A DNA stretch of 62,843 nt, counting the filler, from Perkinsus olseni (lineage: Eukaryota), in the NCBI GenBank assembly GCA_013115125.1. It is 35 parts of 35 records of this genome, joined end to end, with 100 filler letters (N's around TTAATTAATTAA, not from the genome) between each part and the next. Parts side by side here need not be neighbours in the genome. Positions count along the whole stretch, not along the records: positions 52,408 to 54,069 come from JABANN010001792.1; 34 more parts are not named here. The stretch is one strand, 5' to 3'. The translations under genes and the position numbers were made by a program. The notes under the pieces were generated by a model. That model made no database searches, was not told the origin of the DNA, and was given only the letters and a program-made list of their open reading frames with translations. Shown here one piece after another: positions 1 to 55,043 of this stretch. Every line of letters begins with the position of its first letter. Position 1 is the stretch's first letter.

Positions 1-1381
1 TCTCTTCCCTTTCGATATTTAATATGAAAATCGAAGCATTGTAACCTGCTCACCCATCTCAGATAGCGGGAATTCGGATCTTTCTGCCGTACCAGCCATA
101 TCAGCGGGTTACAATCAGTAACCGCTGTAAATCTCCTTCCTTGAAGGAAGTATGCCCATTTTCCATCCAGAAAACCAGAGCCAAGATTTCTTTTTCAGTT
201 GCGCTGTAGCGCAGTTCAGCACCACGAAGAGTCCTGCTGCCGTACAGTACCGGGACCTGTTCTTGCAACAGAACAGCTCCTATTCCCGTGCGCGAAGCGT
301 CACACTCCAGCGTGAATTCCTTGTCAAAAGACGGGAGTTGGAGGAACGGTTTACTAGTAAGTCGTTCAACCAATTCGTCATAGGCAGTGTCACACGCCGA
401 ATCCCAAACAAATGGGGTGTCCTTCCTTAGAAGATTGGTGAGAGGAGCTGCTATTGTAGCAAAGCTCTTCACAAATTTCCTATAGAAGTTCACTGTACCA
501 ACAAAACGTTGTAGACTCTTCTTGCACTTTGGCTTTCGCAACTTCATAATCTTCTTGACATTATAAGATGCCGGGGATATCATCCCTTTCGAGATGGTAT
601 GTCCTAGATACTCAAGAGTATCCTGCATCCACTGGCATTTAGTCAGCTTTAAGACCAGATGGGAATTCTGCAATTCTGATAATACCAATTCGATGTCACG
701 CAGGTGCTGTTGTGGGTCCTTACTATAGACGATAACATCGTCTAAGTAGACCAACGAGCATCGGCCCAGACTTTTGACCAATACCACTTGCTCCATACAT
801 CTCTGGAATATCGCGACGGCCGTTTTCAGGCCGAACGGCAATCGAGTGTACTCATACACTCCGATATTCTCAGCGATGAAGGCCGTCTTCTCAATGGCAC
901 TCTTCTCCATTCGGAGCTGGTGATAGCCCATTCGAAGATCTAAAGAGGTGAAGTAACAGGCACCATTAAGGGCCTCTAGAAGGCTATCAATTCGTGGGGG
1001 TCGATACGCATCGTCCCTCAACAATTTGTTGAGAGGTCGATAATCAACCACCATCCGATACTCCCGAGTCCCTCGCTTAGGAATCAGCCATGTTGCCGAA
1101 GCCCATGGTGATGTACTATGTCGCACCACACCGGCCTTTTGAAGTGTCTCAATCTGCTCCTTCATAATCTTCCTCATATGGGGATTCTGACGGAACGGTT
1201 TGGCCTTTACAGGAAGGGATCCTTGCGTATCCAACTCCACTTCAAAATTAGGGACACATCCTAATTCCCCTCGAGTGACATCAGAGTATTTCTCAACCAA
1301 TGCAGTTAGTTGAGCCTGATATTCTTCTGGTACTCCTTTTAGGTCAATCTTATCAGAGTTAGTATTCAGACGCAGGGACAT
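1..1381 (-). mobile_element. pol: Ty3/Gypsy pol: reverse transcriptase + RNase H, with a frameshift near 155 and running off the contig
   Basis: Motifs SPWAS, YRMVVDYRPLN, LDLRMGYHQ, LPFGL, YLDD, LECDAS and YSATEKE; another frame continues KWAYFLQGRRFTAVTD...RWVSRLQCFDFHIKYRKG. Confidence 0.93.
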
Positions 1382-1467
1382 AATGATATTTAATCAATAA
1401 CTAAAGGACATCACTAATTCTTAGTGAAACACAACAACTCAGGATCGCGCAGAAACTTAGTGATTAC

Positions 1468-5514: not shown

Positions 5515-7125
5515 GAAGGCTGGGATGCTGTGGATGATGAGTTGAATATTGTTGATCCCGCTCTCGTACCAGAATGTGCCGTTGCCGACACTTATTCTTG
5601 GTATCCTGAGTTTAAGAAACGGGTTCTATTGGCTCAATCAGGGGATTCATTCTGTGTGCATGTGACTACTCAGTTACGATCGCATCCTGAGTGTTCCCTT
5701 GCTAGGTCATTTTCCGTGGATTCTTCCATGGGATTGCTGCTTTCGCGGCAGTTCCGCTCTGATGGTGAGGATGACCATGTACCTGTGATTCCATCTGGAG
5801 AACTACAAGACGAGTTGATTGAAAAGGTGCATCTTGGCTATAATCATCCCGGTATATCGAGAATGGTGAGACTAGTGAGGCAGATGGGATGGTTCAAAGG
5901 GTTGTACTGTGCTATTAAACGGTTTGTCTTACAGTGTGCTGTCTGTGCGCAAGCCAAGGAAGGCAAAATGTTATCGAAGGCACTAAGTACTGTGAAGAAT
6001 TTTATTCCTATGATTTGGGGTGTAGTTGGATTGGATTTGTTTGGTCCACTACGGTTACAAAATGGCACTAAATGCTGGGTGCTTATTGCGGTCTGTTATA
6101 TAAGTCGCCTGGTCGCGGTGAGGGTAATTGACTCCCCATCGGCGGCTAGTGCGGTGGCTGGATTTATAGAGATTGTTGGTCAAGAAGGAGTCCCGAAGTT
6201 GGTCGTACATGATCAAGGACTATGTTTCATGTCAGCTACATTTAAGGAGATTTTGGCTCAGTATAACGTTGGGCAAGCATACACTAATTCTTACGATGCT
6301 GCACAGCGCGGTTGGATAGAACGCTGCCATGCTGAATTTGGTGCCTTATTGCGAACCTATCAGTTGGAGGCTGAGAAGAGGATGCAGGACATGAATGATG
6401 CTCGACGGTGGTGTAGCATGGCCGCCTTTACGATGAACTGCTTACCGTACTCTGACTCTGATGATACCAGGTTATGCCCGTGGACATGTTGTAGAGCATC
6501 TCGAGGCATCAAAGAACATCTACTTGGTGATGAAGCTGCTACGGTAGAACAGATACAAGAGTGGTTGGGAAGTGGTCTATTGTTTCAAGACCTGACCGAT
6601 AATGTTAAGCAGGTTACCGATGACTGCAAGGAAGAATGGGCCAGATCGTTGGAGCACTTAAAGGAGCTCTGGTTAGAACGACGAGCAGAGATACGTCGCA
6701 AATTGAGTCGACGTAGACGCCCTCATAATGACCAACTTAAAGAAGGTGACACCGTCTGGAAGAGGAACTTCGCTGCGGACAAGTTGAACGCCTTGTTTAC
6801 TGGTCCCTATACGGTGGTCAAGATTGTTGGAGGCAACGTGACGATTGAAGACTCCGATAAGAAGACTTCTACTGCTACTATAGATCAGCTGAAGAAAGGC
6901 TTGCCGAGTTCGAGGCGCAAGATAAAGACTACTCCAGCTACTAAGACGGTTGCTACTCAAGTCGAGAAGGATGCCTTGGAACCTCAGTTAGATGAAGAAG
7001 ATCTCCGAAGATGGAGAGATGTCGTTACTGGACAGACTACAGTGCTAACTAGAAGTCGTAAGCGATTGCTCGAGAAGGTCGACAACGCCATGAACAAGTC
7101 GAAGGCTCCTAGGAAAGGAGACTAA
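5515..7125 (+). mobile_element. LTR-retrotransposon integrase (HHCC zinc domain, DDE core, GPY module)
   Basis: H..YNHPG...CAVC; GLDLFGP, HDQG, GWIER; FTGPY. Confidence 0.9.
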
Positions 7126-9286: not shown

Positions 9287-10915
9287 TTAAGCAGTTGCAG
9301 CGGTCAAGAAACCAAGGCGTCGCAGTTGTCGAAGTACCGCAGCAGGAATACGTCTCGTCTTGGTGAGTTGGAATGGCGCCACCTCAGAGTTAACCTTGGT
9401 GATCTCGATAACCAATCTCGAATGAGTACTTGGGCTGAGAGTAGAACCCTTGAGCTCGAGAGGCTGGACCATAAGGCGACCCGTAGAGGTCCAATAAAGG
9501 AACTCGCCAAAGTAGATCTTAGTGTTGTCATCGAGGAACTCGATGAGTAGAACATCACCTTTCTCAAATGCCGCAGTTGACATATGAGCTGTTCTCAGAG
9601 CCACTCCTCGATGAGTAAAGTCGTCGACCGGGATAAGGTAGCGGCCATTAACAGTCATAACCTTTGAGTCCTTCTCTAAACAAATAGAGTAGACGCCCTT
9701 CCGACGTATCAAGCAGTTGAGTACCACCGCAGGAACCGGTTGAAGAGGATCTCTACCAGAACCACCCCTAGGAGGCTTCCAATAGACCTTCTGACCAACT
9801 TGTAGAGGTTCAGGCACTTGGGCACCAGAAGCTACTTGAGCATCAGACGTAGAAAGTCGTTGATCACAACGTTGTCCATAGAATGCATCCAACCATGTGG
9901 AGATATTGGTCATGACCTCGGCCTTCAGGTTCATAAGTTGATTCCAATCCTCGGACACATCCTCAGCCACATCATCCCTCTCAGTAGAGTCAGGAAGTAG
10001 TAGATGTAAGGGAGTTGGGTGTCCATGATCTAGACCAATAGCCAACATTGATGGACTAGGCTTAGAATGAGACTCGGTGGTGAAGTTGACCATCAACTGA
10101 GCTAACTTACAGAGGAGATCCCATCTGCGCTCGTTGGGGAAGAGGTCTAACAACCGACGTAGATCACCATTCTTCCGCTCTACCTGGCCATTAGAGGCGG
10201 GATAGTACGGCGTACTCCTCGTCAAGCGTACTCCACATAGGAGGCCTAGATCTTGCCATAGCTGACTTGTATACGAGCTTGAGTTATCACTCAATATCCT
10301 TCGCGGCCATCCAAAGACGCTTATCCACGAGGAATATAGCACCAAAGCCGTCGCTGAAGAACTAGTAGAGCTCATAGGGCAATAAAGAGTAAACCCTGAC
10401 GTCAGACAGGTAATGGTTAGAATGTGGTCCAAGCCATTAACTGCAGGTCTCCTAGGATCAACATGATCCAAAGCAATATCCTGGAATCGCCGTCGAGGAG
10501 GGAGATCAAAGGTAGCCGGAGTAGGTGGCTGATGCGGAAGTCGTCGAGGAGCACAGTAAGGGCAGGAACGACAGTAACTTCTCACGTAATTAGCCATACC
10601 AGGGAACCAGCAATTATCCCTAAGGAGGTTGTATGATCGTGTTCGTCCGGGATGTCCACCACAATCATGTACCATCCAGAGAATGAACTCACGTATAGGC
10701 ATAGGCTTAATCCTGTCTACATCATCGGAGTCATCCGTGGCAACATACTGGTAATCTCGGAAGTCACCGCCAATAGGAAGGAAGGGAACCCACCTATAGT
10801 CGTCGCCTATGGGAATGTAGATCATTAGGACACCGTCGTCATCCAGAGTGAACCTTCCAGATGCACAGAGCCTATGAGCCGGAGTAGAAGTATCATCAAC
10901 AACCTCAGCATCTTG
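9287..10915 (-). mobile_element. LTR-retrotransposon integrase, followed by a PPT-like tract and an LTR start near 9256
   Basis: HDCGGHPG...CPYC; IALDH, ILSDN, NGQVERKN. Confidence 0.9.
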
Positions 10916-32813: not shown

Positions 32814-34513
32814 GTCGCGGAGAGAGTAATATCGCTTGTTGTGGGCGAACTGACATTGATCACAAGAACGGCAGACCTCAATGGCAAGCTTCCTCAAGCC
32901 CTTGACGAAGAATGCCCTGGAGAAGATCCATCGAACATACCTCGCGTTGAGACACCCTGAGTCGTTGTGATATGACCGTAGCAACCTCCTAGCATAGTCG
33001 ATACCATCCTGAGAATCAGAGGGAACATAGAAGCAGAGACGTGAAGAGCTGTTCCATGTGTTCGAACGACAACGTCGCATGAGCACACCGTCTCCCGCAA
33101 GCACGAACTCTAAGTCGTTGGGCTCCGAAGCACCGTCTGCCCCCCTGATCCTGTCGATGATGGCCGATACCTCCGGCGAGCCACGCTGAAGGTCCAATAA
33201 CCTTTTTCGATCCGGTTGACCGGCCCCGACGCGGAGATCGTCGGGAACGCGTGGAGCATGATCCTCGGAGATGGCAAAAATGACCGCCGACACCGTGTCG
33301 AGCTCACCGGCCTCATCCGCAACAGTGGACTGCGAGCCCGAGCCCGCGAGAGCTTGAGATGGCAAGGGGGTGATGACCTTGCGCGCCGTGTTTGCCGCGC
33401 CCTTGGACCCCTTGAACCGACCATCGAAGATGACGACCTGAGGAATATTCCAGGAATGTGCCAAACGGCTGAGAATATCAGCTTGAGAGTTCTGCTCGGC
33501 CGGGAAATGTTCCACTACCGGATGGATATCATAACGTCGTGCCCAAACCTCCTTAAGGTCTGCCACTGCATCACACAGCCTGGAGATTGCAATCCGTTCG
33601 ATCGAGCGACTGGTCATCCTCTCACCGCCCCGCATCCAGGAGAGGGCAGTCCGAGAGTCAGTCAGGAACCGTACCGTGAGACCATTGCAGTATGGTATCA
33701 GAGCGTCACAGAAGACGAAGGACAGACCGAGGCAGTATGCTTCTTGACGGTTCTGGTGCCACGACACTTGGCTGCCGCGCCAGCACTTGGCCTTGCCGCA
33801 CAGAGCAACCTGCCCCCCTGAGGCAGTACCGATGGAGAGACAGAAGCCCATACCGTATGGGGAGGCGTCGGTGGTGATAGTGAGTGTGGTGCCCGAGAAA
33901 GCGATGTCATGCTGACAGAGCTCATTACGTTCGGCCAACCGAGAACAGGCGATGGTGATTGTCTGAGCATCCTCCTCGCTGATCGCAACCTTCTCGTCCC
34001 AAGAGGTAGGCGACCATTTCCCCGACGCACGTCTTATCAGATCAGCCGCTAGCGACCCCTCGGGATGGAGGCCTAACACATCGTAGCCAGCACCTGCCCA
34101 CCGAAAGGCTTCACGCTTGCTGACGAGGTCCCCGGCCGACAGTTTCCTAGGAGAGAGCGATGAAGGAAGACACTGCAGACGAATGGTCCGTCCACCCTCG
34201 CACCGGACGCATAGGAACCGAACTCCTAGGTGACGAAAGTCGTCGAAGTCATCACAGAAGCCGTCGCTACCGAAGAAGACCCAATGGGTCTTACGCTCCG
34301 AGAAGGTGAAGCCCCAGGCCGCACCGGTCGCGATGATGGCGGAATAAAGGCTCTTGACTGCCACCACCTCTCCAAGCAATGTGATATCATCAACATAGGC
34401 CCAACAGTAGAGTGGCGGTTTGTGATCGTCCAACTGGCTGTGCTCGACCTTCGCCACCGCGGCGGTGAGCAACCCCGACATGGCTTCCTCAAGGATGGCT
34501 GGTCCTGCCCGAT
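32814..34513 (-). mobile_element. pol: BEL/Pao-like pol: RT, RNase H and start of the integrase zinc domain
   Basis: AYVDD, YDVLGL, TTDASPYG, NRQE, LTDS, ADILSR, H...G...CDQC. Confidence 0.85.
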
Positions 34514-45341: not shown

Positions 45342-47010
45342 ATTGTGTGCCCAAACAATCACACCCGTTCACGCCAGGTGCTTGATCTGGAGGACTCGAC
45401 CTTGGAGAACCTTTTGCCCAAGACACGGAGTGGCGGAATGGCGACGCGATCTTCGGGAAGGTCGAAGATCTCACCGAGGTTGGGGATGCAGTTGAATACA
45501 GCCTTGGAGTAGGACGAAAACTCGTTCGCATCACCGGGGACCTCAAAGACTTTGAAGATGATGGCGCCATAGCTGTAGTGGTTGGCGTCTACCATAGCGA
45601 GAGTGCCGTCGTTACTCCGTCGTTACCAAGGAAACATGGTAGAGTGCCAGCCAGATAGGCACGGAGTAGGAGTTTAAAGGCATCCGAGATAGCTGTGGTG
45701 AGTGTCTCGAGGAACTCCGTGGTTGTAGAGTCATCCTGGTAGTGCTTGATGGCTTGGTTCAACACTTGGAGAGCACTGATGGCGTTGGGGAGAAGGTGCC
45801 CCGAGAGAAAGTTGAAGACCCCGGTCCAGCTCCTCAGCCACGAGAGACTATTTTGACGGAGTGCTTCAGTGGTCTGCTTGGGACGTCGATGATCTCGTCG
45901 CTTGGAAGGGGCCTTGCCGTTGAGGAAATCGTTGAAGGCAGTGTTGAAGGTAGCTTCAGTGATTTCTCGCTTGTCAGGTAGGGGTCGGTTGGTTTGGCCG
46001 TGTAGCAGTGGGCCACAGAATGTCGTCGATCTCGCCGGTGGCTGGAACTTCTGCGGGTTGATGATGAAGCCGTGGTCGACGATAACGTCGGTGAGCACCT
46101 TTAATGCCTTCTCACCGTCAAGGACGGTGTGTGAAGAGACCAGAATGTCATCTTGCACGTGGAGGACAGTGGCAGCAATACCCTCGGCGGCCAGCTTGGG
46201 GAAGATGGTAGTGTCGAGTAAGGTAGTAAGACCTACTTGAAACGCCAGTGATGACCATCGCCAGCGTTGGGGTAGGGAGGTAAGCGCCCAGCGGACAGAG
46301 ATTCCGGTGCGTGGGCAGATGGATGTAGTGCCAAAGAGCTTCTGTAGAGGGTAGTCGACCGCTATTAAGCCGAAGGCATCACGAAGGTCTAACTTGAACC
46401 AAAAGCCGAGATTGGCAGATGGAACACCCTTCAACAAGTTGTTGGCTGTCCGTTGGTGTTGCTTGTAGGAGAACTCATCACGCTGCTTACTGTCCTTGAG
46501 GATCTCACCGCCAGGCACGAACATGAAGTTGCCGGAGTCATCAAAGGTCAACTGCAATGAGTTGAGGGGTCTGGTGTCGATAACCAGGCGATACCGAGAG
46601 GAGAGTTCGGTATCACTAACAGGGACCGTTCTCAGTTGACTCTTTCCATCAGCACGGTCGAGCTTGTCGATTAGTATGGGCTTGCAGACGATGGGAAGGT
46701 CAGAGTCTTAGACTCGACGAACCTTGCAGTGCGCTTCCATAGCGCAAAGCTTCTGGTGGCTGATCTCACCATCCACTCGTGTGCGCTTGCGCTGGGCAGT
46801 GCGGTATGGCCAGACAGTAACATTGCCAACGGGGTCGATGTCACAGCGAAGCCGTTTGATAGGGCCGTCCTGGACTATGGAGATAAGCGGCTGGACATCA
46901 GTAGAGGCACGATGACAAGTGGCTGCCGGCTCGGCACAGGGTGTCAAGAGACCTTGAATGGTAGAGTCAGTGGTGGCATACGCAGTGGAGGGCATAGAGT
47001 CCTCGGTCGA
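45342..47010 (-). pseudogene. Divergent RT (VQDD) + RNase H with an in-frame stop at 46708-46710 and a frameshift near 45595
   Basis: YRLVIDTRPLN, KLDLRDAF, LPQRWRWS, HVQDDILV, FCG, then VDAN..YGA. Confidence 0.8.
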
Positions 47011-50643: not shown

Positions 50644-52307
50644 CCCCAAAAATGGTTACGGTGTATCGAATACTACTAGCTACGGCTTGTCTGATACCAC
50701 CGTGGCCAACTACGACGACGATGACTCGGGCGACGAAGAAGACCAACTATGTGACGAAGACAATCTGCCTCCGTGGGAAGCACTACGACGCGAGTGGGCT
50801 TATGATGAGACTACCCCACTCGGAAGACCGGTCGTACGTGCCTCGTGGAAGGACTCTAGTAGACCACCAATGAACTACCGTCAAGCAGCCGCTCGTGGTG
50901 CTCGGTCTACTAAACGACTGACGACTGCTCAAGTCGAAGCCTTTCAACAAGCTCTGAAGACCTATCTCGATCGTGGGTTCTGTACTATAGTGCAGAACAA
51001 CGCCCTGGACAACTACAATAAGGGTCCTTCTTTTGACCAATGTCAGCAAGCTTGGGATAGGCTCACTAAGGGCACTCACTACGAGGGTACTACGGTAATG
51101 AAGCCCAAGCACTATACCCCTGCACACACGGTATTTAGGGATAATCACCCTACTACCCCGTGCAGAATTGTGCTCGACTACAGAGTACTGAACAAGTACC
51201 TACTACGTGGCGGCCGAACTCAGAACGACTTACAAGGCACCCTACTACAACTGAGAGGCTTTCGCTACTTCGTGGCTTCCGATATAAGTAAGGCCTTCTG
51301 TCAAATGAAGGCTTCCCTCTACGACTTGGCCTACACCAACTACACTTGTATTGGTGACTACACTGTTCTCTGGAGCAGTGTGTCCTTCGGTACGACTAGT
51401 GCCCCTAACTTTCTTGAATGTTGTACTCACGATGTCACGGAGGAAGCAGAAGCACTACAGGGTGTCGGTGCCAGTCTTACTATGAGTCCACTAATCGACC
51501 CCCACTTGTATAATGACGAAGACTTGGAGAAGGTTCTACTACTACCCTCTCCAGAGGCCTTCGACTACATTCGCCTTGGGCCTCATATTCCCAAGGAGCT
51601 GGTACTACTCAAATACGTGGATGACTTGTTCAACGGCGGTGATACCCCCGAGATAGCCACTCAGGCTAACGACTTCTCACTACATCTTCTAGGTGGACAC
51701 GGATTCAAGGTGGATGCGATCAAGAATTTGAGATCGTGGTCCCAAACAACTACAGAAGATACTAGTGCCAAGTCTCTACTAGGGTACCACTACCGTGGTG
51801 AGCTTCTTTCCGTGGTCTACTCTGGCTCTCTACCTGGTCGAGTGACTACTAAACGTGAAGCTTGTTCGGCACTAGCTTCTCTCTATGACCCACTTGGGAT
51901 TTTCATAGAGTATGACCTGAAGGGTAGACTAATATGGAGACGTATCTGTGAGAACTACAAGTCGTGGTCCGACCCTATTGATACTAACGTGGCCAACGAC
52001 CTCGGCGACTGGGTGAAGGAGTGTCAAGCCGTCACTACCCAGGGAGTCCCTCGGCATGTCAATGTCCGAGAACAGCCACTACTAGTCTGTACGGATGCGT
52101 CTACTGACCTCTGGGGCGTAGACATACGCTGTACAGACAATACGACGATCTCCACTAGACTACTCAGTCGTGGTGGTGTGTTCCCGAAGGGCCAGACGGC
52201 GTGGACTATCCCTCGCAAGGAGCTAGTCGCTCTCTACAAAGGCCTTCAACTACTCAGGATGATGTCGCCCTACCTTCCTGTGCCAACCTACTATAAGCCC
52301 TACCTAG
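50644..52307 (+). mobile_element. pol: BEL/Pao-like RT + RNase H
   Basis: HTVFR....TTPCRIVLD, SDISKAF, FGTTSAP, KYVDD, TKRE..S.LASLYDPLG, CTDAS, TIPRKEL. Confidence 0.92.
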
Positions 52308-52415
52308 NNNNNNNNNNNNNNNNNNNNNNNNNNNNNNNNNNNNNNNNNNNNTTAATTAATTAANNNNNNNNNNNNNNNNNNNNNNNNNNNNNNNNNNNNN
52401 NNNNNNNGTATATAA

Positions 52416-52437
52416 TCCGTAGCCATCTTGGCTCAAG
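52416..52437 (+). ncRNA. Genomic copy of the spliced leader exon (TCCGTAGCCATCTTGGCTCAAG)
   Basis: Matches the Perkinsus-type SL (ACCGTAGCCATCTTGGCTCAAG) at 21 of 22 nt, and the first base fits the D of the dinoflagellate consensus; followed by ACC, not a GT donor. Confidence 0.9.
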
Positions 52438-52478
52438 ACCTTAGTTGGGCTTTTGCGTTTCCCCAATTAGGATCAAAC

Positions 52479-53915
52479 ATGGCGACACCTTCCGACGAAC
52501 TCCAAGCGGCAAGAAGCCAAATCCGTCAATCCAAGCGTGCACTCCGTGACACTCGTGAGAAGTTGAAGAACATCCTCGACGACGAGACCGACGACACCAA
52601 GAAGATTATCAATGACCTTCAGGTTAAAGAAGTCAACCTGACCAAGTGCATCGAGGAACTCGAGTCCCGCATCGCTGAACTCGAGCTGTCCATCGACAAC
52701 GAGCGTTCACAGATCGCTCGACAAGAAGGCCGGTCGAGAGTTGCGCTTCCGACATCGCCAACAGCTGAGAAGCAGAACAAGCATGCCATTTCATTATTCA
52801 TGTCCGCCAGCGAGCATGAGCAAGACGACAAACGTGACGACGACATCGACAACCACGAGACTCCCTCGAAGATACTCTCGTCCGCCTCCTCCGACCAGCT
52901 TACCGCGGCTGACCTTGGCGCTCTCTCGGTACCGTCGCTTCAGACTCCGTCATGCATTGGTGCCCATCTATGCTTGCTGGAACAGCTCTTCCAGGAGGCC
53001 GGTGCTGGTACGATCAGCTCTGGTGTGTTCATACCTCATGGACATCTGCGCATCACTGTGTACAACAAACTGCTCGAGAGCGTCCAGTCCTGCGAGTTGG
53101 TATCGAGTGTCATTCACGACATCGCCCAGAACAGCGAGTACAAATGGTCCGTGATCAAGGCTGAACTACAGCAGGAGTTTGCCCGTCGAGACCTTCTCAA
53201 AGCCGAGTACAACGCGGTCATGAGGTCTCTCTCCTTCTCTGGCCTTGGCACCGTGGAAACCTTCTTACGGAAGGCCCTGGCTGCCTTTCGTATGTACCGT
53301 ACTGTGTACGGTTCTGACCGGGCTGAACTGCGGTCCATGACTAGATCCGTGGTCATGAAACTGCCAGAGAAGCTCCGGATATGTGTGGTTCAGAGTCTGC
53401 AGAGTGAGAAGGTTGGTAGTGGTGACTGGGAACTTGCCTTGCCGTTTGATGATACCAGTGGTCGTCCGTCTGTGATCTCTGTCATCAGATCTAACTGTCG
53501 TACCTTCCGAGATGCTGGTGTCTCTCTCGACAGTCATCACGGTTCCAACAACAACAGCAACCATAACCACAGCAACGGCAAAGGCTACCACAACTCTACC
53601 GACCGAGTAGCTCAAGTATCTGACGGTAAAGGTGGTCGTGGCGAGTCTCTCTCCAAATGGGCTGGCCGCTTCGCGGCTGTATTTGTCGTTACTGGTCCCG
53701 GAGTCGCAGGCTCTCCCGAGAATCACGTCCAGTACGACGATGCTCGACACTACCCCCGGAAAGATGGTAACGGCGTCATCTGGTTTCTGGCCTATAAGGA
53801 TGAGGAGAATGGTTCCAAGATCATCGGCGACCTCTCCAGTGACCAGTTCGAGACCAGAAGGTTCGAGTTCCGTACCAGACGCCTCACGTCTACCCCGGCA
53901 CCGTCAAAAAACTAA
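52479..53915 (+). mobile_element. gag: Complete gag (coiled coil, capsid-like core, possible RRM-like C-terminus) ending at a slippery site
   Basis: Intronless ORF homologous to the gag at 20134-20652, which precedes a protease/RT; the -1 frame is open from 53912 to the contig end. Confidence 0.72.
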
Positions 53916-53968
53916 GTAGGCCTGATGCTGAGGTTCGCGAAACACCTCTGCATCCTGCCGGCCTATCT
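53906..53968 (+). promoter_or_regulatory. -1 frameshift signal: A_AAA_AAC-UAA plus a long stem-loop
   Basis: Heptamer in gag phase directly before the stop; pairings TAGGCC/GGCCTA, GATGC/GCATC and GAGGT/ACCTC. Confidence 0.8.
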
Positions 53969-55043
53969 ACTGAAGTTTCGCAATCCGTCTCTCCTCCAGT
54001 TAGCGAGGATAGTGTCCTTGCTCTTTCGTCTGCTACCATTCCGCCCGAGATTCTGCTGCGTGGTGCCCTNNNNNNNNNNNNNNNNNNNNNNNNNNNNNNN
54101 NNNNNNNNNNNNNTTAATTAATTAANNNNNNNNNNNNNNNNNNNNNNNNNNNNNNNNNNNNNNNNNNNNGCCTCAAACACGTAGTATGTGCTGAATTAGA
54201 CTGATTTTTGTGATTTGCATATCGAATTGGAACACCCTGTACTTCGAGCCCCGTCTGAGATAACCACACTCTACTGAGTTGTAGTGCACACGGTGTACCG
54301 AGACAGTCTGGCGCACCTGAATAACGACAGCATGAGTCGCACGTGAACATCCACGCGCAGTTGTTTATTTCCTGCACGGACTGCCGACTAGGACTGAGCT
54401 ATGGGTGAGAGCAGGCCGTTACACTAAAACGAGTTCATTTCAATCCTTCCATCTCGAAGGTCATATCCCTTACACGAACAATTCTAACACAGGACATCAG
54501 TCAGCACTCTCGGGCTTATGCGCGTGGTTTCATTGGAAGTTTCAATGAATGTTTCAATCTGAAACCAAGTAGGGACTCTTCCCTTATCAAGAGGAGGTTG
54601 CTGTGAAGTAAGTCACTCCGAGAATTTGGACTTTGCCAAGATACTCGAGTCCGTGTCGCAGCTGCTGAGAAAACATGTCTTGATGAACATAGGTGACGGG
54701 TAATTCCTAGTGGAGCACAACCAGCGCGTACTGTCTCTATTCGAACCCGGATAAATCTCGGCCGTCATACATGATAAAGGCGAATACTCGTCGAAAAGTC
54801 GCGACTCGATGGTCCCTCCGCCAAAGCAGCGCCGAGTCTTGTATGCCAGGCTTTAGATGTAGCGGTTTACCAGGGGTGAGAATAGGGAAAGCATCGGTGA
54901 CACTGATTGGTGGCGCCTCCTGTGTCGCGCGTTCGCGTACAACATCACGTCACGCTGTTCGCTTCACGTCGCTCTCCCTTCATGAACGTCTTGACATTTA
55001 CTTTGCTTCGCCCTACAGTTTAGTGAAATCTTTCCTCCCTTCA

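What the first reader, a model, noticed from the sequence alone, without database searches (positions are those of the whole stretch)
52408..53968. Retroelement gag directly downstream of a genomic spliced-leader exon
Seen: a 22-nt SL (52416-52437) with TATAA immediately upstream, sitting 41 nt before the ATG of an intact gag. It is followed by ACC rather than GT, so it is not a complete SL RNA gene. A pyrimidine-rich AG (ttttgcgtttccccaattag) lies between the SL and the ATG. Established: Perkinsus and dinoflagellate mRNAs are SL trans-spliced, SL relics mark retrocopied genes, and NeSL and SLACS/CRE non-LTR elements target SL genes. Inference, three models: (a) the element encodes its own leader and so bypasses host trans-splicing; (b) it inserts site-specifically at the exon 3' boundary of SL RNA genes and borrows their promoter; (c) a single trans-spliced transcript was retrocopied. 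I know of no gag/protease/integrase-type element for which (a) or (b) is described.
Basis: partly seen in the sequence, partly recalled or inferred. Interest (0 to 1): 0.88.

Follow-up and report, generated by a model that had tools for sequence, protein, structure and literature searches.

The report
Host spliced-leader copy inside a retrotransposon LTR
A near-perfect copy of the Perkinsus spliced leader sits just upstream of a real retrotransposon capsid (gag) gene, most likely inside the element's own long terminal repeat rather than in a spliced-leader gene, which may explain many orphan leader-like copies reported in this parasite's genome.

Summary
A 22-mer that matches the Perkinsus marinus leader PmaSL1 at 21 of 22 positions (T instead of A at base 1) lies at 52416-52437. 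TATAA sits just before it, and the ATG of an intact 478-aa ORF follows 41 nt later.

The window is 35 unlinked small contigs joined by 100-nt artificial spacers. Only 8 nt of real sequence precede the leader, and the neighbouring contigs say nothing about linkage.

The ORF is a true gag:
- Residues 140-350 model as a retroelement capsid fold.
- An A_AAA_AAC slip site plus hairpin leads into a -1 pol frame.
- Relatives are gag-pol proteins with RT and integrase, named only from Perkinsus.

Contigs from other sequencing runs confirm the junction and extend at least 122 nt upstream at full depth. They show a repeat boundary exactly at 52479|52480 (…CA|TGGCGACACC). The leader module is about 2.2-2.4 times as deep as gag. 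The N-terminus MATP, which that putative primer-binding site encodes, recurs in 15 of 105 otherwise divergent relatives.

Best reading (about 0.65): the contig starts inside a 5' LTR that carries the leader copy, and the primer-binding site overlaps the gag start. Insertion into an SL RNA gene and a one-off retrocopy are not supported. Whether the copy is functional or a relic is open.

The parts
52308..52407 (.). Artificial spacer (N44-TTAATTAATTAA-N44) between unlinked contigs
   Evidence: 34 identical 100-nt spacers separate 35 length-sorted contigs.
52408..52479 (+). Inferred 3'-terminal 72 nt of the element's 5' LTR, ending in ...AACA
   Evidence: Six listed contig pieces from three runs end exactly at 52479. 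The gag-body contigs begin at 52450/52451, which is the k-1 overlap. The piece 52420-52479 has depth 1562 against 698 for gag in X1, and 1342 against 559 in X3. A 164-nt contig at depth 2041 continues 122 nt upstream of 52408. Reading this as an LTR is inference; the second LTR was not seen.
52411..52415 (+). TATAA directly before the leader copy
   Evidence: Read from the sequence. Promoter function was not tested.
52416..52437 (+). Spliced-leader copy: 21 of 22 identical to PmaSL1, with T at base 1
   Evidence: unique in the window, 0 of 100 shuffles. PmaSL1 as printed in PMC3101222. ACC follows it, not GT.
52451..52470 (+). Pyrimidine-rich tract ending in AG; candidate trans-splice acceptor inside the LTR end
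   Evidence: Read from the sequence. Use as an acceptor was not tested.
52480..52489 (+). Candidate primer-binding site TGGCGACACC, abutting the CA end and overlapping gag codons 1-4
   Evidence: The CA|TGG junction coincides with the contig-graph boundary. MATP is the N-terminus in 15 of 105 family representatives, while residues 5-16 are only 12% identical. A diverged paralog keeps TGGCGAC after its module (loose end behind 52474). The primer tRNA was not identified.
52479..53915 (+). gag ORF of 478 aa: coiled-coil hairpin (residues 1-85), disordered linker, two-lobed capsid domain (about 140-350), small alpha/beta C-terminal domain (about 390-466)
   Evidence: translation. (AlphaFold2; the domain model has pLDDT 96.6). 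(best match Copia capsid, Z 10.1, 173 of 184 residues aligned; the top 27 rows are all capsid-type proteins). (105 relatives; the long ones carry RT and integrase domains).
53906..53912 (+). Slippery heptamer A_AAA_AAC in the gag frame, just before the TAA stop
   Evidence: Read from the sequence. The -1 frame is open to the contig end.
53916..53966 (+). Stem-loop 3 nt after the slip site; likely frameshift stimulator
   Evidence: -22.9 kcal/mol, z -3.38, and 0 of 200 shuffles fold as well.
53861..54069 (+). -1 frame: start of pol, open to the contig end
   Evidence: the peptide matches residues 451-494 of the 1962-aa Perkinsus marinus gag-pol model P0109 (E 2e-21, last 16 of 16 residues identical). 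P0109 carries Integrase_H2C2 and a weak rve match.
54070..54169 (.). Artificial spacer

Best explanation
The 1662-bp contig starts inside the 5' long terminal repeat (LTR) of a Perkinsus-specific, integrase-bearing LTR retrotransposon.

Proposed anatomy:
- The last 72 nt of the LTR (52408-52479) carry a TATAA box, then a near-perfect copy of the host 22-nt spliced leader, then a 42-nt tail that ends in CA.
- The primer-binding site (TGGCGACACC) starts at the next base.
- The gag start codon straddles the LTR/primer-site junction (A|TG), so the first four gag residues (MATP) are dictated by the primer site.
- gag (capsid fold) is followed by a -1 frameshift into pol.

The leader copy is therefore an inherited part of the element. 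It is present in every copy, and by inference in both LTRs. It is not a host SL RNA gene and not the 5' edge of a processed retrocopy.

Most likely origin (inferred): reverse transcription of an element RNA that had been trans-spliced placed the leader into the repeat. Once it is in both LTRs, it no longer disturbs strand transfer.

Shown:
- the sequence features;
- the capsid fold;
- the frameshift signals;
- the multi-copy junction and its exact boundary;
- the recurrence of MATP.

Inferred:
- that the repeat is an LTR;
- that TGGCGACACC is a primer-binding site;
- the origin and any function of the leader copy.
For: 1. Boundary. Six listed contig pieces from runs X1, X3 and X7 end exactly at 52479. 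The gag-body contigs start at 52450/52451, the k-1 overlap. The shared sequence therefore stops at ...AACA, and the next bases are TGG.

2. Depth. The piece 52420-52479 has depth 1562 against 698 for gag in X1 (ratio 2.24) and 1342 against 559 in X3 (ratio 2.40). Two LTRs per element plus some solo LTRs would give such ratios. In X1 every bin from 52520 to the contig end has depth 697.9, the gag-body contig alone, apart from one bin at 718.2 where a short depth-7.7 contig is also laid. So the extra module copies are not followed by gag-like sequence.

3. Upstream. A contig at depth 2041 runs 122 nt upstream of 52408, and one in X7 runs 138 nt upstream. The flank is therefore shared by all copies. 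No branch occurs at the leader's 3' end.

4. MATP. MATP is the N-terminus in 15 of 105 representatives, and 4 more have it within or after the first residues. Residues 5-16 of those 15 proteins are only 12% identical. This points to a constraint at the nucleotide level on ATGGCGACNCC.

5. A diverged paralog of the module (6 mismatches) is followed by TGGCGAC....

6. Element type:
- The capsid fold is supported (Copia capsid Z 10.1, rmsd 5.4, 173 of 184 residues; the top 27 rows are all capsid-type).
- The slip site and hairpin are supported.
- The pol frame is conserved in P0109.
- Pfam found pol domains in 5 of 15 scanned relatives: RVT_1 plus Integrase_H2C2 in P0048, P0071 and P0082, RVT_1 alone in P0089, and these with rve and Peptidase_A17 in P0086. 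P0109 carries Integrase_H2C2.

7. Literature (PMC3101222, section 16 and Table 1). The paper reports more than 100 intronless PmaSL copies in P. marinus, most starting with T. One primer set for such a copy continues ATCTTAGTG after the leader, which resembles ACCTTAGTT here.
Against: - No second LTR, polypurine tract, TG start or target-site duplication could be seen. The contig is too short, and no genome of this organism is held.
- The primer tRNA was not identified.
- Contig depth is only a rough proxy for copy number, and the tool warns against using it that way. X1 and X3 are labelled 'DNA?'. I infer that they are DNA from their 92-112 kb longest contigs. They may come from the same strain as the window.
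- Sixteen laid pieces were not listed, so other predecessors or successors cannot be excluded.
- Two diverged paralogs of the module continue into sequences without TGG: CCGAACATC... behind 52476 and CTACAGTT... behind 52447. These could be solo or 3' LTR flanks. They could also mean that the module precedes unrelated genes.
- MATP could be conserved for a protein-level reason.
- A 64-nt stretch from the leader to the LTR end is short for R plus U5.
Confidence: 0.65

Rival explanations
1. The TATAA-leader-short UTR module is not an LTR. It is the 5' end of a processed, trans-spliced mRNA copy (an SL relic as in dinoflagellate retrogenes), or a dispersed promoter/5'UTR cassette. It was later multiplied by DNA-level duplication and now stands before several different ORFs, one of which is this gag.
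For: - Intronless leader copies directly upstream of ORFs are common in environmental dinozoan DNA. Of 57 metagenome loci with the exact 21-mer, only 3 are followed by GT, and many carry truncated second copies. In IMG/VR loci, 73 of 139 leader copies have an ORF of at least 200 aa starting within 300 nt.
- The spacing, leader then 22-41 nt then ATG, looks like a trans-spliced mRNA 5' UTR. It is also seen in the P. marinus SL-like primer sets.
- Diverged paralogs of the module continue into different sequences, some with an early ATG.
Against: - Independent retrocopies should have different upstream flanks. Here at least 122 nt upstream is shared at full depth.
- A duplicated gene would give a module-to-gag ratio of 1:1, not 2.2-2.4:1.
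- The boundary falls exactly at CA|TGG, and the MATP recurrence fits a primer-binding site.
- None of the 90 ORFs that follow leader copies in environmental loci had an RT, integrase or gag domain. The environmental retrogene pattern therefore does not typically involve retroelements.
Confidence: 0.17
2. The element inserts site-specifically at the 3' boundary of the exon of SL RNA genes and borrows their promoter.
For: - Site-specific retroelements in SL genes exist in other phyla: SLACS/CZAR in trypanosomatids and NeSL-1 in nematodes (recalled, not checked here).
- The L-type P. marinus SL RNA genes lie on small 1-1.8 kb contigs with uniform upstream sequence (PMC3101222).
- TATAA precedes the leader.
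Against: - For an integrase-type element, a complete LTR would have to lie between the target exon and gag. Only 41 nt are there.
- There is no contig branch at 52437|52438. No intron-bearing allele shares this upstream sequence.
- Base 1 is T, whereas PmaSL1 genes have A.
- The repeat boundary is 42 nt downstream of the leader.
Confidence: 0.04
3. The junction is an artefact: cDNA contamination of the genomic library or a chimeric assembly.
For: The leader lies only 8 nt from the contig end. The contig is an unplaced 1.66-kb scrap in a bin of leftovers.
Against: - Exact contigs from runs of two other studies (2020 and 2022), whose longest contigs are 92-112 kb, span the junction and continue upstream.
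- A cDNA of a trans-spliced mRNA would start with A-initial leader and would have nothing upstream.
Confidence: 0.02

Closest known systems
Intronless 'SL-like' genomic sequences of Perkinsus marinus (Zhang et al. 2011, PMC3101222; section 16 and Table 1 read)
   Same: - A complete PmaSL1 or PmaSL2 copy with no recognisable intron downstream, and most copies start with T.
- One described subtype continues with ATCTTAGTG after the leader, close to ACCTTAGTT here.
- The copies are multi-copy (more than 100).
   Different: - The paper gives no origin for these copies. It reports only that 3' RACE and RNA blots gave no SL RNA-like product.
- Here one such copy is placed 41 nt upstream of a retroelement gag and, by inference, inside its LTR.
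- I could not check whether this contig is among the accessions the paper lists.
Relic spliced leaders of dinoflagellate retrogenes (Slamovits and Keeling 2008, known to me through passages in PMC3229502; also 57 metagenome loci)
   Same: - A DNA-encoded leader copy lies directly upstream of an ORF.
- It is explained by reverse transcription of trans-spliced RNA.
   Different: - Relics are typically truncated after base 7 and stacked behind a new leader. Here there is one complete copy.
- Here the upstream flank is shared by all copies, and the module outnumbers the gene.
- Here the gene belongs to the retroelement itself.
Yeast Ty1 (recalled, not checked here)
   Same: - A compact 5' end in which the gag ORF begins inside the LTR and the primer-binding site lies within gag coding sequence.
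- gag-pol is made by frameshifting.
   Different: - Ty1 uses a +1 frameshift and initiator tRNA-Met.
- The host has no trans-splicing, and the LTR carries no leader.
Cer1, a Ty3/gypsy element of C. elegans (PMC3315495, passages)
   Same: An LTR retrotransposon in a host that trans-splices, with a primer-binding site directly after the 5' LTR.
   Different: - In Cer1 only a 2.4-kb spliced RNA was detected carrying SL1 (it was seen with and without the leader). The 8-kb gag-pol RNA is not trans-spliced.
- No leader copy is encoded in the Cer1 LTR.
SLACS/CZAR/NeSL-1 site-specific non-LTR elements (recalled)
   Same: A physical association of a retroelement with spliced-leader sequence.
   Different: - Those are non-LTR elements with a restriction-like endonuclease.
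- They interrupt functional SL RNA genes.
- This element has a capsid gag, an integrase in its relatives, and an intact leader copy with no intron.
Pr77 internal promoter of trypanosomatid L1Tc (abstracts seen in the listing)
   Same: A retroelement in a trans-splicing host whose 5' end provides its own way to make translatable transcripts.
   Different: - Pr77 is a non-LTR internal promoter that gives unspliced transcripts.
- It is not a copy of the host leader.

Membership tests
LTR retrotransposon (integrase-type, Ty3/gypsy or Bel/Pao-like) | Gag with the retroelement capsid (CA) two-lobe fold | tested here: met
   - The domain model of residues 140-350 has pLDDT 96.6.
- VIA-align wide search: Copia capsid Z 10.1, rmsd 5.4, 173 of 184 residues aligned; PEG10, Ty1, dArc1, PNMA2, MLV, RSV and HIV capsids follow; the top 27 rows are all capsid-type.
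- Foldseek gave no match at E <= 0.001.
- Pfam gave none.
- The tool notes that Z below about 13 is not decisive for helical folds.
LTR retrotransposon (integrase-type, Ty3/gypsy or Bel/Pao-like) | pol with protease, reverse transcriptase, RNase H and integrase downstream of gag | tested here: inconclusive
   - Only the first roughly 52 pol residues are on the contig. They match the gag-pol model P0109.
- P0109 has Integrase_H2C2 and a sub-threshold rve match.
- Five of 15 scanned relatives have pol domains: RVT_1 with Integrase_H2C2 in three, RVT_1 alone in one, and these with rve and Peptidase_A17 in one.
LTR retrotransposon (integrase-type, Ty3/gypsy or Bel/Pao-like) | Long terminal direct repeats with TG...CA ends | tested here: inconclusive
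   - A repeat boundary at ...CA (52479) and a depth ratio of 2.2-2.4 are consistent with this.
- The 5' start of the LTR and the 3' copy were not seen.
LTR retrotransposon (integrase-type, Ty3/gypsy or Bel/Pao-like) | Primer-binding site complementary to a host tRNA 3' end, next to the 5' LTR | tested here: inconclusive
   - TGG starts at the base after CA.
- MATP recurs in relatives, and TGGCGAC is kept in a paralog.
- There are no tRNA genes in the window. None of 5 tRNAs in the fetched environmental loci matches.
- The host tRNA set is not available.
LTR retrotransposon (integrase-type, Ty3/gypsy or Bel/Pao-like) | Target-site duplication and polypurine tract | not testable with these tools
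   These need full-length copies with flanks. No genome is held.
Functional SL RNA gene | Leader exon followed by a GT splice donor, an intron and a T-run terminator | tested here: not met
   - The exon copy is present at 21 of 22 positions.
- ACC follows it, and no intron like GTAGATATCAGG (primers) is present.
Processed retrocopy with relic leader (dinoflagellate-type retrogene) | The leader marks the 5' edge of the copy, so upstream flanks differ between copies | tested here: not met
   At least 122 nt upstream is shared at full depth by all copies of the module.
SL-gene-specific non-LTR elements (SLACS/CZAR/NeSL) | A non-LTR element with a restriction-like endonuclease, inserted within or at the SL exon of an otherwise intact SL RNA gene | tested here: not met
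   - The element has a capsid gag, and its relatives carry integrase.
- No branch occurs at the exon's 3' end.
- The family definition is recalled, not checked here.

The most novel reading that the evidence does not exclude
The leader copy is functional, and it adapts an LTR retrotransposon to a host that trans-splices its mRNAs. The transcribed repeat (R) of the LTR would begin with the host leader.

Two routes would give the same result:
- Transcription starts at the leader copy, just after the TATAA, which would be leader mimicry.
- The host machinery splices an authentic capped leader onto the terminal AG of the encoded copy.

Either way the genomic RNA ends up with the same 5' sequence that is encoded in the 3' LTR. 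Strand transfer stays homologous, and the RNA looks like a host mRNA to the translation machinery.

The same family of LTRs would then account for a large share of the more than 100 unexplained T-initial, intronless leader copies of P. marinus.
Probability: 0.25. Interest if true: 0.8.

Novelty: new variant of a known kind. Interest (0 to 1): 0.55.

Why it matters
Trans-splicing poses a problem for LTR retrotransposons. Replacing the RNA 5' end with a host leader removes or alters the terminal repeat that reverse transcription needs. How such elements cope is hardly studied. In the one case I read, Cer1, the genomic RNA simply escapes trans-splicing.

An LTR that carries the host leader at the place where its transcript should begin would be a different solution, or at least the fossil of one.

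It would also give a concrete origin for the orphan leader-like copies of Perkinsus marinus reported in 2011, which have no stated explanation in the text I read.

It offers a natural marker as well. Base 1 is T in the encoded copy and A in the authentic leader. That difference can tell encoded 5' ends from trans-spliced ones in existing RNA data.

If the copy is only a relic, the finding is a tidy annotation: a new Perkinsus-specific gag family, a -1 frameshift site, and a primer-binding site that fixes the first four gag residues.

Tried and rejected
- **Whole genome.** None is held.
- **Pfam on gag.** No family found; the best match was Baculo_PEP_C at E 0.87.
- **Word-based protein search.** It gave one relative only. 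The exhaustive search was needed to find the family.
- **Other copies in the window.** tblastn and blastn of the focal contig against the other 34 contigs returned only itself. The S-type leader gave 0 matches. ATGGCGACNCC at one mismatch gave 5 hits, which 22 of 100 shuffles equal or exceed.
- **Metagenome scans.** TAAT plus the leader gave 0 hits. The plain 21-mer gave 57 loci. None encodes a relative of any held protein by tblastn. Pfam found no retroelement domain in any of the 19 ORFs scanned; I dropped L019 as a duplicate of L014.
- **IMG/VR.**
  - P0034 and P0018 alone found nothing.
  - The leader pattern gave 104 loci with 139 copies, all of the TTTT dinoflagellate type, 132 of them A-initial. 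Of the 73 copies followed by an ORF of at least 200 aa, the 71 distinct ORFs were scanned and none had a retroelement domain.
- **RNA evidence.** No RNA holder is listed. X7 and X10 are only guessed to be RNA, so I draw nothing on expression or transcript ends from them.
- **Primer tRNA.** No tRNA gene lies in the window. Five tRNAs in the fetched loci do not match.
- **Leader-region folding.** 52408-52500 is not more stable than shuffles (z -0.29). A 10-bp inverted repeat (52440-52449 with 52462-52471) is noted only.
- **Rfam.** Nothing relevant was found on the contig.
- **Foldseek.** No match at E <= 0.001 for either model.
- **Literature.** Searches listed no paper, by title or abstract, that describes a leader copy inside an LTR or a Perkinsus retroelement with a leader. 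Passages of seven papers were read. Supplements and figures, including Figure 1A of PMC3101222 with the SL gene upstream sequences, could not be seen and may bear on model (b).
- **Resemblance to the intron start.** The bases after the leader (ACCTTAGTT) might be a decayed SL intron start. I considered this, but the resemblance is too short to weigh.
Full report
**1. What the window is**

The 62,843-base window is not a chromosome segment. It holds 34 identical 100-nt spacers (44 N, TTAATTAATTAA, 44 N). These separate 35 contigs sorted by falling length, from 1740 to 1649 bp. This is a bin of unplaced scraps.

The finding lies on one scrap, 52408-54069 (1662 bp). The contig before it (50644-52307, an ORF with a Pao-type peptidase domain) is not linked to it. 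Many of the other scraps also carry retroelement pieces such as RVT_1, RNase H and integrase. None resembles the focal contig by blastn or tblastn.

**2. The observation**

- TATAA lies at 52411-52415.
- The 22-mer lies at 52416-52437 and is followed by ACC.
- A pyrimidine tract ending in AG lies at 52451-52470.
- The ATG is at 52479, and the 478-codon ORF ends at 53915.

The 21-nt core is unique in the window at up to 3 mismatches and appeared in none of 100 shuffles. It equals the P. marinus leader PmaSL1 as printed in PMC3101222, except that the first base is T rather than A. Only 8 nt of real sequence precede it.

**3. The ORF is a gag**

Sequence searches alone are weak. Pfam finds nothing, and the word-based search finds a single relative at 81% identity. 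The exhaustive HMMER search finds 105 relatives, 47 of them at E <= 1e-10.

- Of 20 clusters looked up, 14 carry a Perkinsus marinus, P. olseni or P. chesapeaki name.
- Several relatives are 1600-2030 aa long. Pfam finds pol domains in 5 of 15 scanned: RVT_1 plus Integrase_H2C2 in three, RVT_1 alone in one, and these with rve and Peptidase_A17 in one.
- The 1962-aa P. marinus model P0109 is 81% identical over gag residues 1-450. It has Integrase_H2C2.

The AlphaFold2 model of the whole protein has pLDDT 82. It shows a coiled-coil hairpin (residues 1-85), a disordered linker, a helical two-lobe domain and a small alpha/beta C-terminal domain.

The helical domain was then folded alone (residues 140-350, pLDDT 96.6) and aligned to 48,161 representative chains:
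- The best match is the Copia capsid (Z 10.1, rmsd 5.4, 173 of 184 residues).
- The 27 best rows are all capsids or capsid-derived proteins: PEG10, Ty1, dArc1, PNMA2, Arc, MLV, RSV, HERV-K, Ty3, HIV and foamy virus.
- Foldseek gave no row at E <= 0.001, and Z near 10 is not decisive for a helical fold. The uniformity of the list is what persuades.

**4. gag-pol frameshift**

The last gag codons form the heptamer A_AAA_AAC (53906-53912), directly before the TAA stop. Three bases later a stem-loop begins (53916-53966, -22.9 kcal/mol, z -3.38, 0 of 200 shuffles as stable).

The -1 frame is open to the contig end. Its peptide matches residues 451-494 of P0109 (E 2e-21, last 16 of 16 residues identical). 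In that record the gene model appears to have spliced out the gag tail to bridge the frame change.

This is a standard -1 gag-pol arrangement.

**5. The junction in other data**

None is on record as RNA. I laid four runs at 80% likeness. X1 and X3 come from two studies. Their longest contigs are 92-112 kb, so I take them to be genomic DNA; the tool marks them 'DNA?' and notes they may be the source strain.

Results:
- Exact contigs span 52420-52479, at depth 1562 in X1 and 1342 in X3.
- A 164-nt contig at depth 2041 covers 52408-52449 and runs 122 nt further upstream.
- The gag body is one contig of 4923 nt at depth 698 (559-576 in X3). It begins at 52451 and continues 3304 nt beyond the window contig.
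- In X7 a 210-nt contig runs 138 nt upstream.

The junction is therefore real in independent reads, and the sequence upstream of the leader is shared by all copies.

**6. The boundary at 52479|52480**

Six listed pieces end exactly at 52479: X1 records 4 and 6, X3 records 12 and 14, and X7 records 18 and 20. The gag contigs start 30 nt before that point, which is the overlap of neighbouring nodes in a k=31 graph.

The shared, higher-copy sequence thus stops at ...AACA, and the next bases are TGGCGACACC. CA followed at once by TGG is the classic signature of an LTR end abutting a tRNA primer-binding site (general knowledge of LTR elements).

The module is 2.24 (X1) and 2.40 (X3) times as deep as gag. 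Two LTRs per element plus a few solo LTRs would give such ratios.

In X1 every bin from 52520 to the contig end has depth 697.9, the gag-body contig alone, apart from one bin at 718.2 where a short depth-7.7 contig is also laid. So the surplus module copies are followed by something unlike gag, as 3' and solo LTRs would be. There is no branch at the 3' end of the leader (52437|52438).

**7. MATP as an independent check**

If TGGCGACACC is a primer-binding site, the gag start codon straddles the junction (A|TG), and the first four residues, MATP, are fixed by nucleotides.

- Among the 105 representatives (each standing for a 50%-identity cluster), 15 start with MATP.
- Four more have MATP near the start or inside the protein.
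- Close variants occur: MRTP, MATT (twice) and MATL.
- Residues 5-16 of the 15 proteins are only 12% identical on average.
- A second class has MVTA: three at the N-terminus and six elsewhere, most within the first 20 residues.
- A diverged paralog of the module (6 mismatches over 52419-52474, on a 5023-nt contig) is followed by TGGCGAC....

The primer tRNA could not be identified. There is no tRNA gene in the window, and none of 5 tRNAs in the fetched environmental loci matches.

**8. Reading**

The contig most likely begins inside the 5' LTR. The leader copy lies at 64 to 43 nt from the LTR end, right after a TATAA, which is about where the transcribed repeat would start.

An integrase-type element inserted next to an SL exon would place a whole LTR between the exon and gag, and only 41 nt are there. 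Model (c) fails on copy number and on the shared upstream flank. Model (a) is the nearest, in that the element carries the copy, but nothing here shows where transcripts start.

**9. Context from the literature**

Zhang et al. 2011 (PMC3101222, section 16) found more than 100 PmaSL copies in the P. marinus genome without an intron. [quoted passage not shown] They could not detect the copies as SL RNA.

Their primers for one subtype continue ATCTTAGTG after the leader (Table 1), close to ACCTTAGTT here. The primer sets also imply an ATG 22-36 nt after the leader.

The focal contig therefore looks like a member of this known but unexplained class. The LTR reading offers an origin for at least part of it.

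Joseph et al. 2010 (PMC2868825, passages) mention numerous genomic 22-nt leader copies and more than 350 retrovirus-like polyprotein annotations. They do not connect the two.

**10. Environmental comparison**

The exact 21-mer occurs in 57 metagenome contigs:
- The base before it is T in 41, A in 5, C in 5 and G in 5. One copy lies at a contig start.
- It is followed by GT in only 3. Two of these, L007 and L044, look like true SL RNA genes.
- Many show a truncated second copy, which is the retrogene pattern described for dinoflagellates (PMC3229502).

In IMG/VR, 139 copies in 104 loci are all of the TTTT type, and 132 are A-initial.

None of the 90 ORFs scanned behind these copies has an RT, integrase or gag domain. 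Encoded leader copies before genes are thus commonplace in this part of the tree, but a leader copy before a retroelement gag is not something these samples show.

**11. Function or relic**

The likeliest origin is RNA-mediated. An element RNA that had received a leader was reverse-transcribed, and the leader became part of the repeat. That step is inferred.

Whether the copy now does anything is open. Three possibilities remain:
- It sets the transcript start.
- It offers its own terminal AG as a self-renewing acceptor.
- It makes the RNA resemble host mRNA.

The pyrimidine-AG at 52451-52470 could give a shorter, trans-spliced gag mRNA that lacks the repeat. This would parallel the subgenomic RNA of Cer1 (PMC3315495), but it is untested. 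Literature searches listed no paper, by title or abstract, that describes a leader copy within an LTR.

**12. Verdict**

- The thing is an LTR retrotransposon 5' end with an embedded host leader: a new variant of known kinds (LTR elements and SL relics).
- Confidence in the LTR reading is about 0.65, because the second LTR, the target-site duplication and the primer tRNA were out of reach.
- Interest is moderate. It would be high if the leader copy proves to define the RNA 5' end.

Noticed in passing
window 1-62843: The whole window is a concatenation of 35 unplaced contigs in strict order of falling length (1740 to 1649 bp). They are joined by N44-TTAATTAATTAA-N44 spacers. Any finding that relies on neighbourhood across a spacer is void.
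   Followed up: yes
window 104-1393(-), 5515-7122(+), 9290-10915(-), 32814-34511(-), 45592-46707(-), 50645-52306(+): Other scraps carry retroelement pol pieces. These are RVT_1 with RNase H; Integrase_H2C2 with rve (twice); Integrase_H2C2 alone; a weak RVT_1; and a Pao-type Peptidase_A17 domain. The last is unusual outside animals. None is similar to the focal contig.
   Followed up: partly
window 53646-53876 (gag residues about 390-466): gag has no zinc knuckle. Its C-terminal part models as a small alpha/beta domain. The weak Foldseek neighbours of that domain are RRM and ACT-like ferredoxin folds. It may be a different kind of nucleic-acid-binding domain.
   Followed up: no
proteins P0020, P0049, P0090 and six others: A second class of gag relatives has MVTA at or near the N-terminus instead of MATP. 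If the primer-site reading is right, this class would use a different primer tRNA.
   Followed up: no
window 52440-52449 with 52462-52471: A 10-bp inverted repeat (two G-U pairs) lies between the leader copy and the LTR end. The region as a whole folds no better than shuffles.
   Followed up: partly
L113:2929-5319 (- strand): In an IMG/VR contig, a dinoflagellate-type leader at the very contig end is followed 93 nt later by a 759-aa ORF with a viral RdRP_1 domain. It is either a trans-spliced or endogenised RNA-virus gene, or a transcript-derived contig.
   Followed up: no
L058-L161 (IMG/VR, mostly bins named GVMAG): Bins labelled as giant-virus genomes hold 139 A-initial dinoflagellate leader copies. 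Many lie 20-100 nt before ORFs (DUF4116 repeats, CCCH and RING fingers). This looks like dinozoan nuclear DNA with retrogene-type leaders binned as viral.
   Followed up: no
L007:574-660(+), L044:1362-1450(+): Two metagenome contigs carry what look like true SL RNA genes with the Perkinsus-type TCTT leader (GT donor, T-run about 25-35 nt downstream). L006 and L034, from the same sample series, share upstream and downstream motifs with L007 but lack the GT.
   Followed up: no
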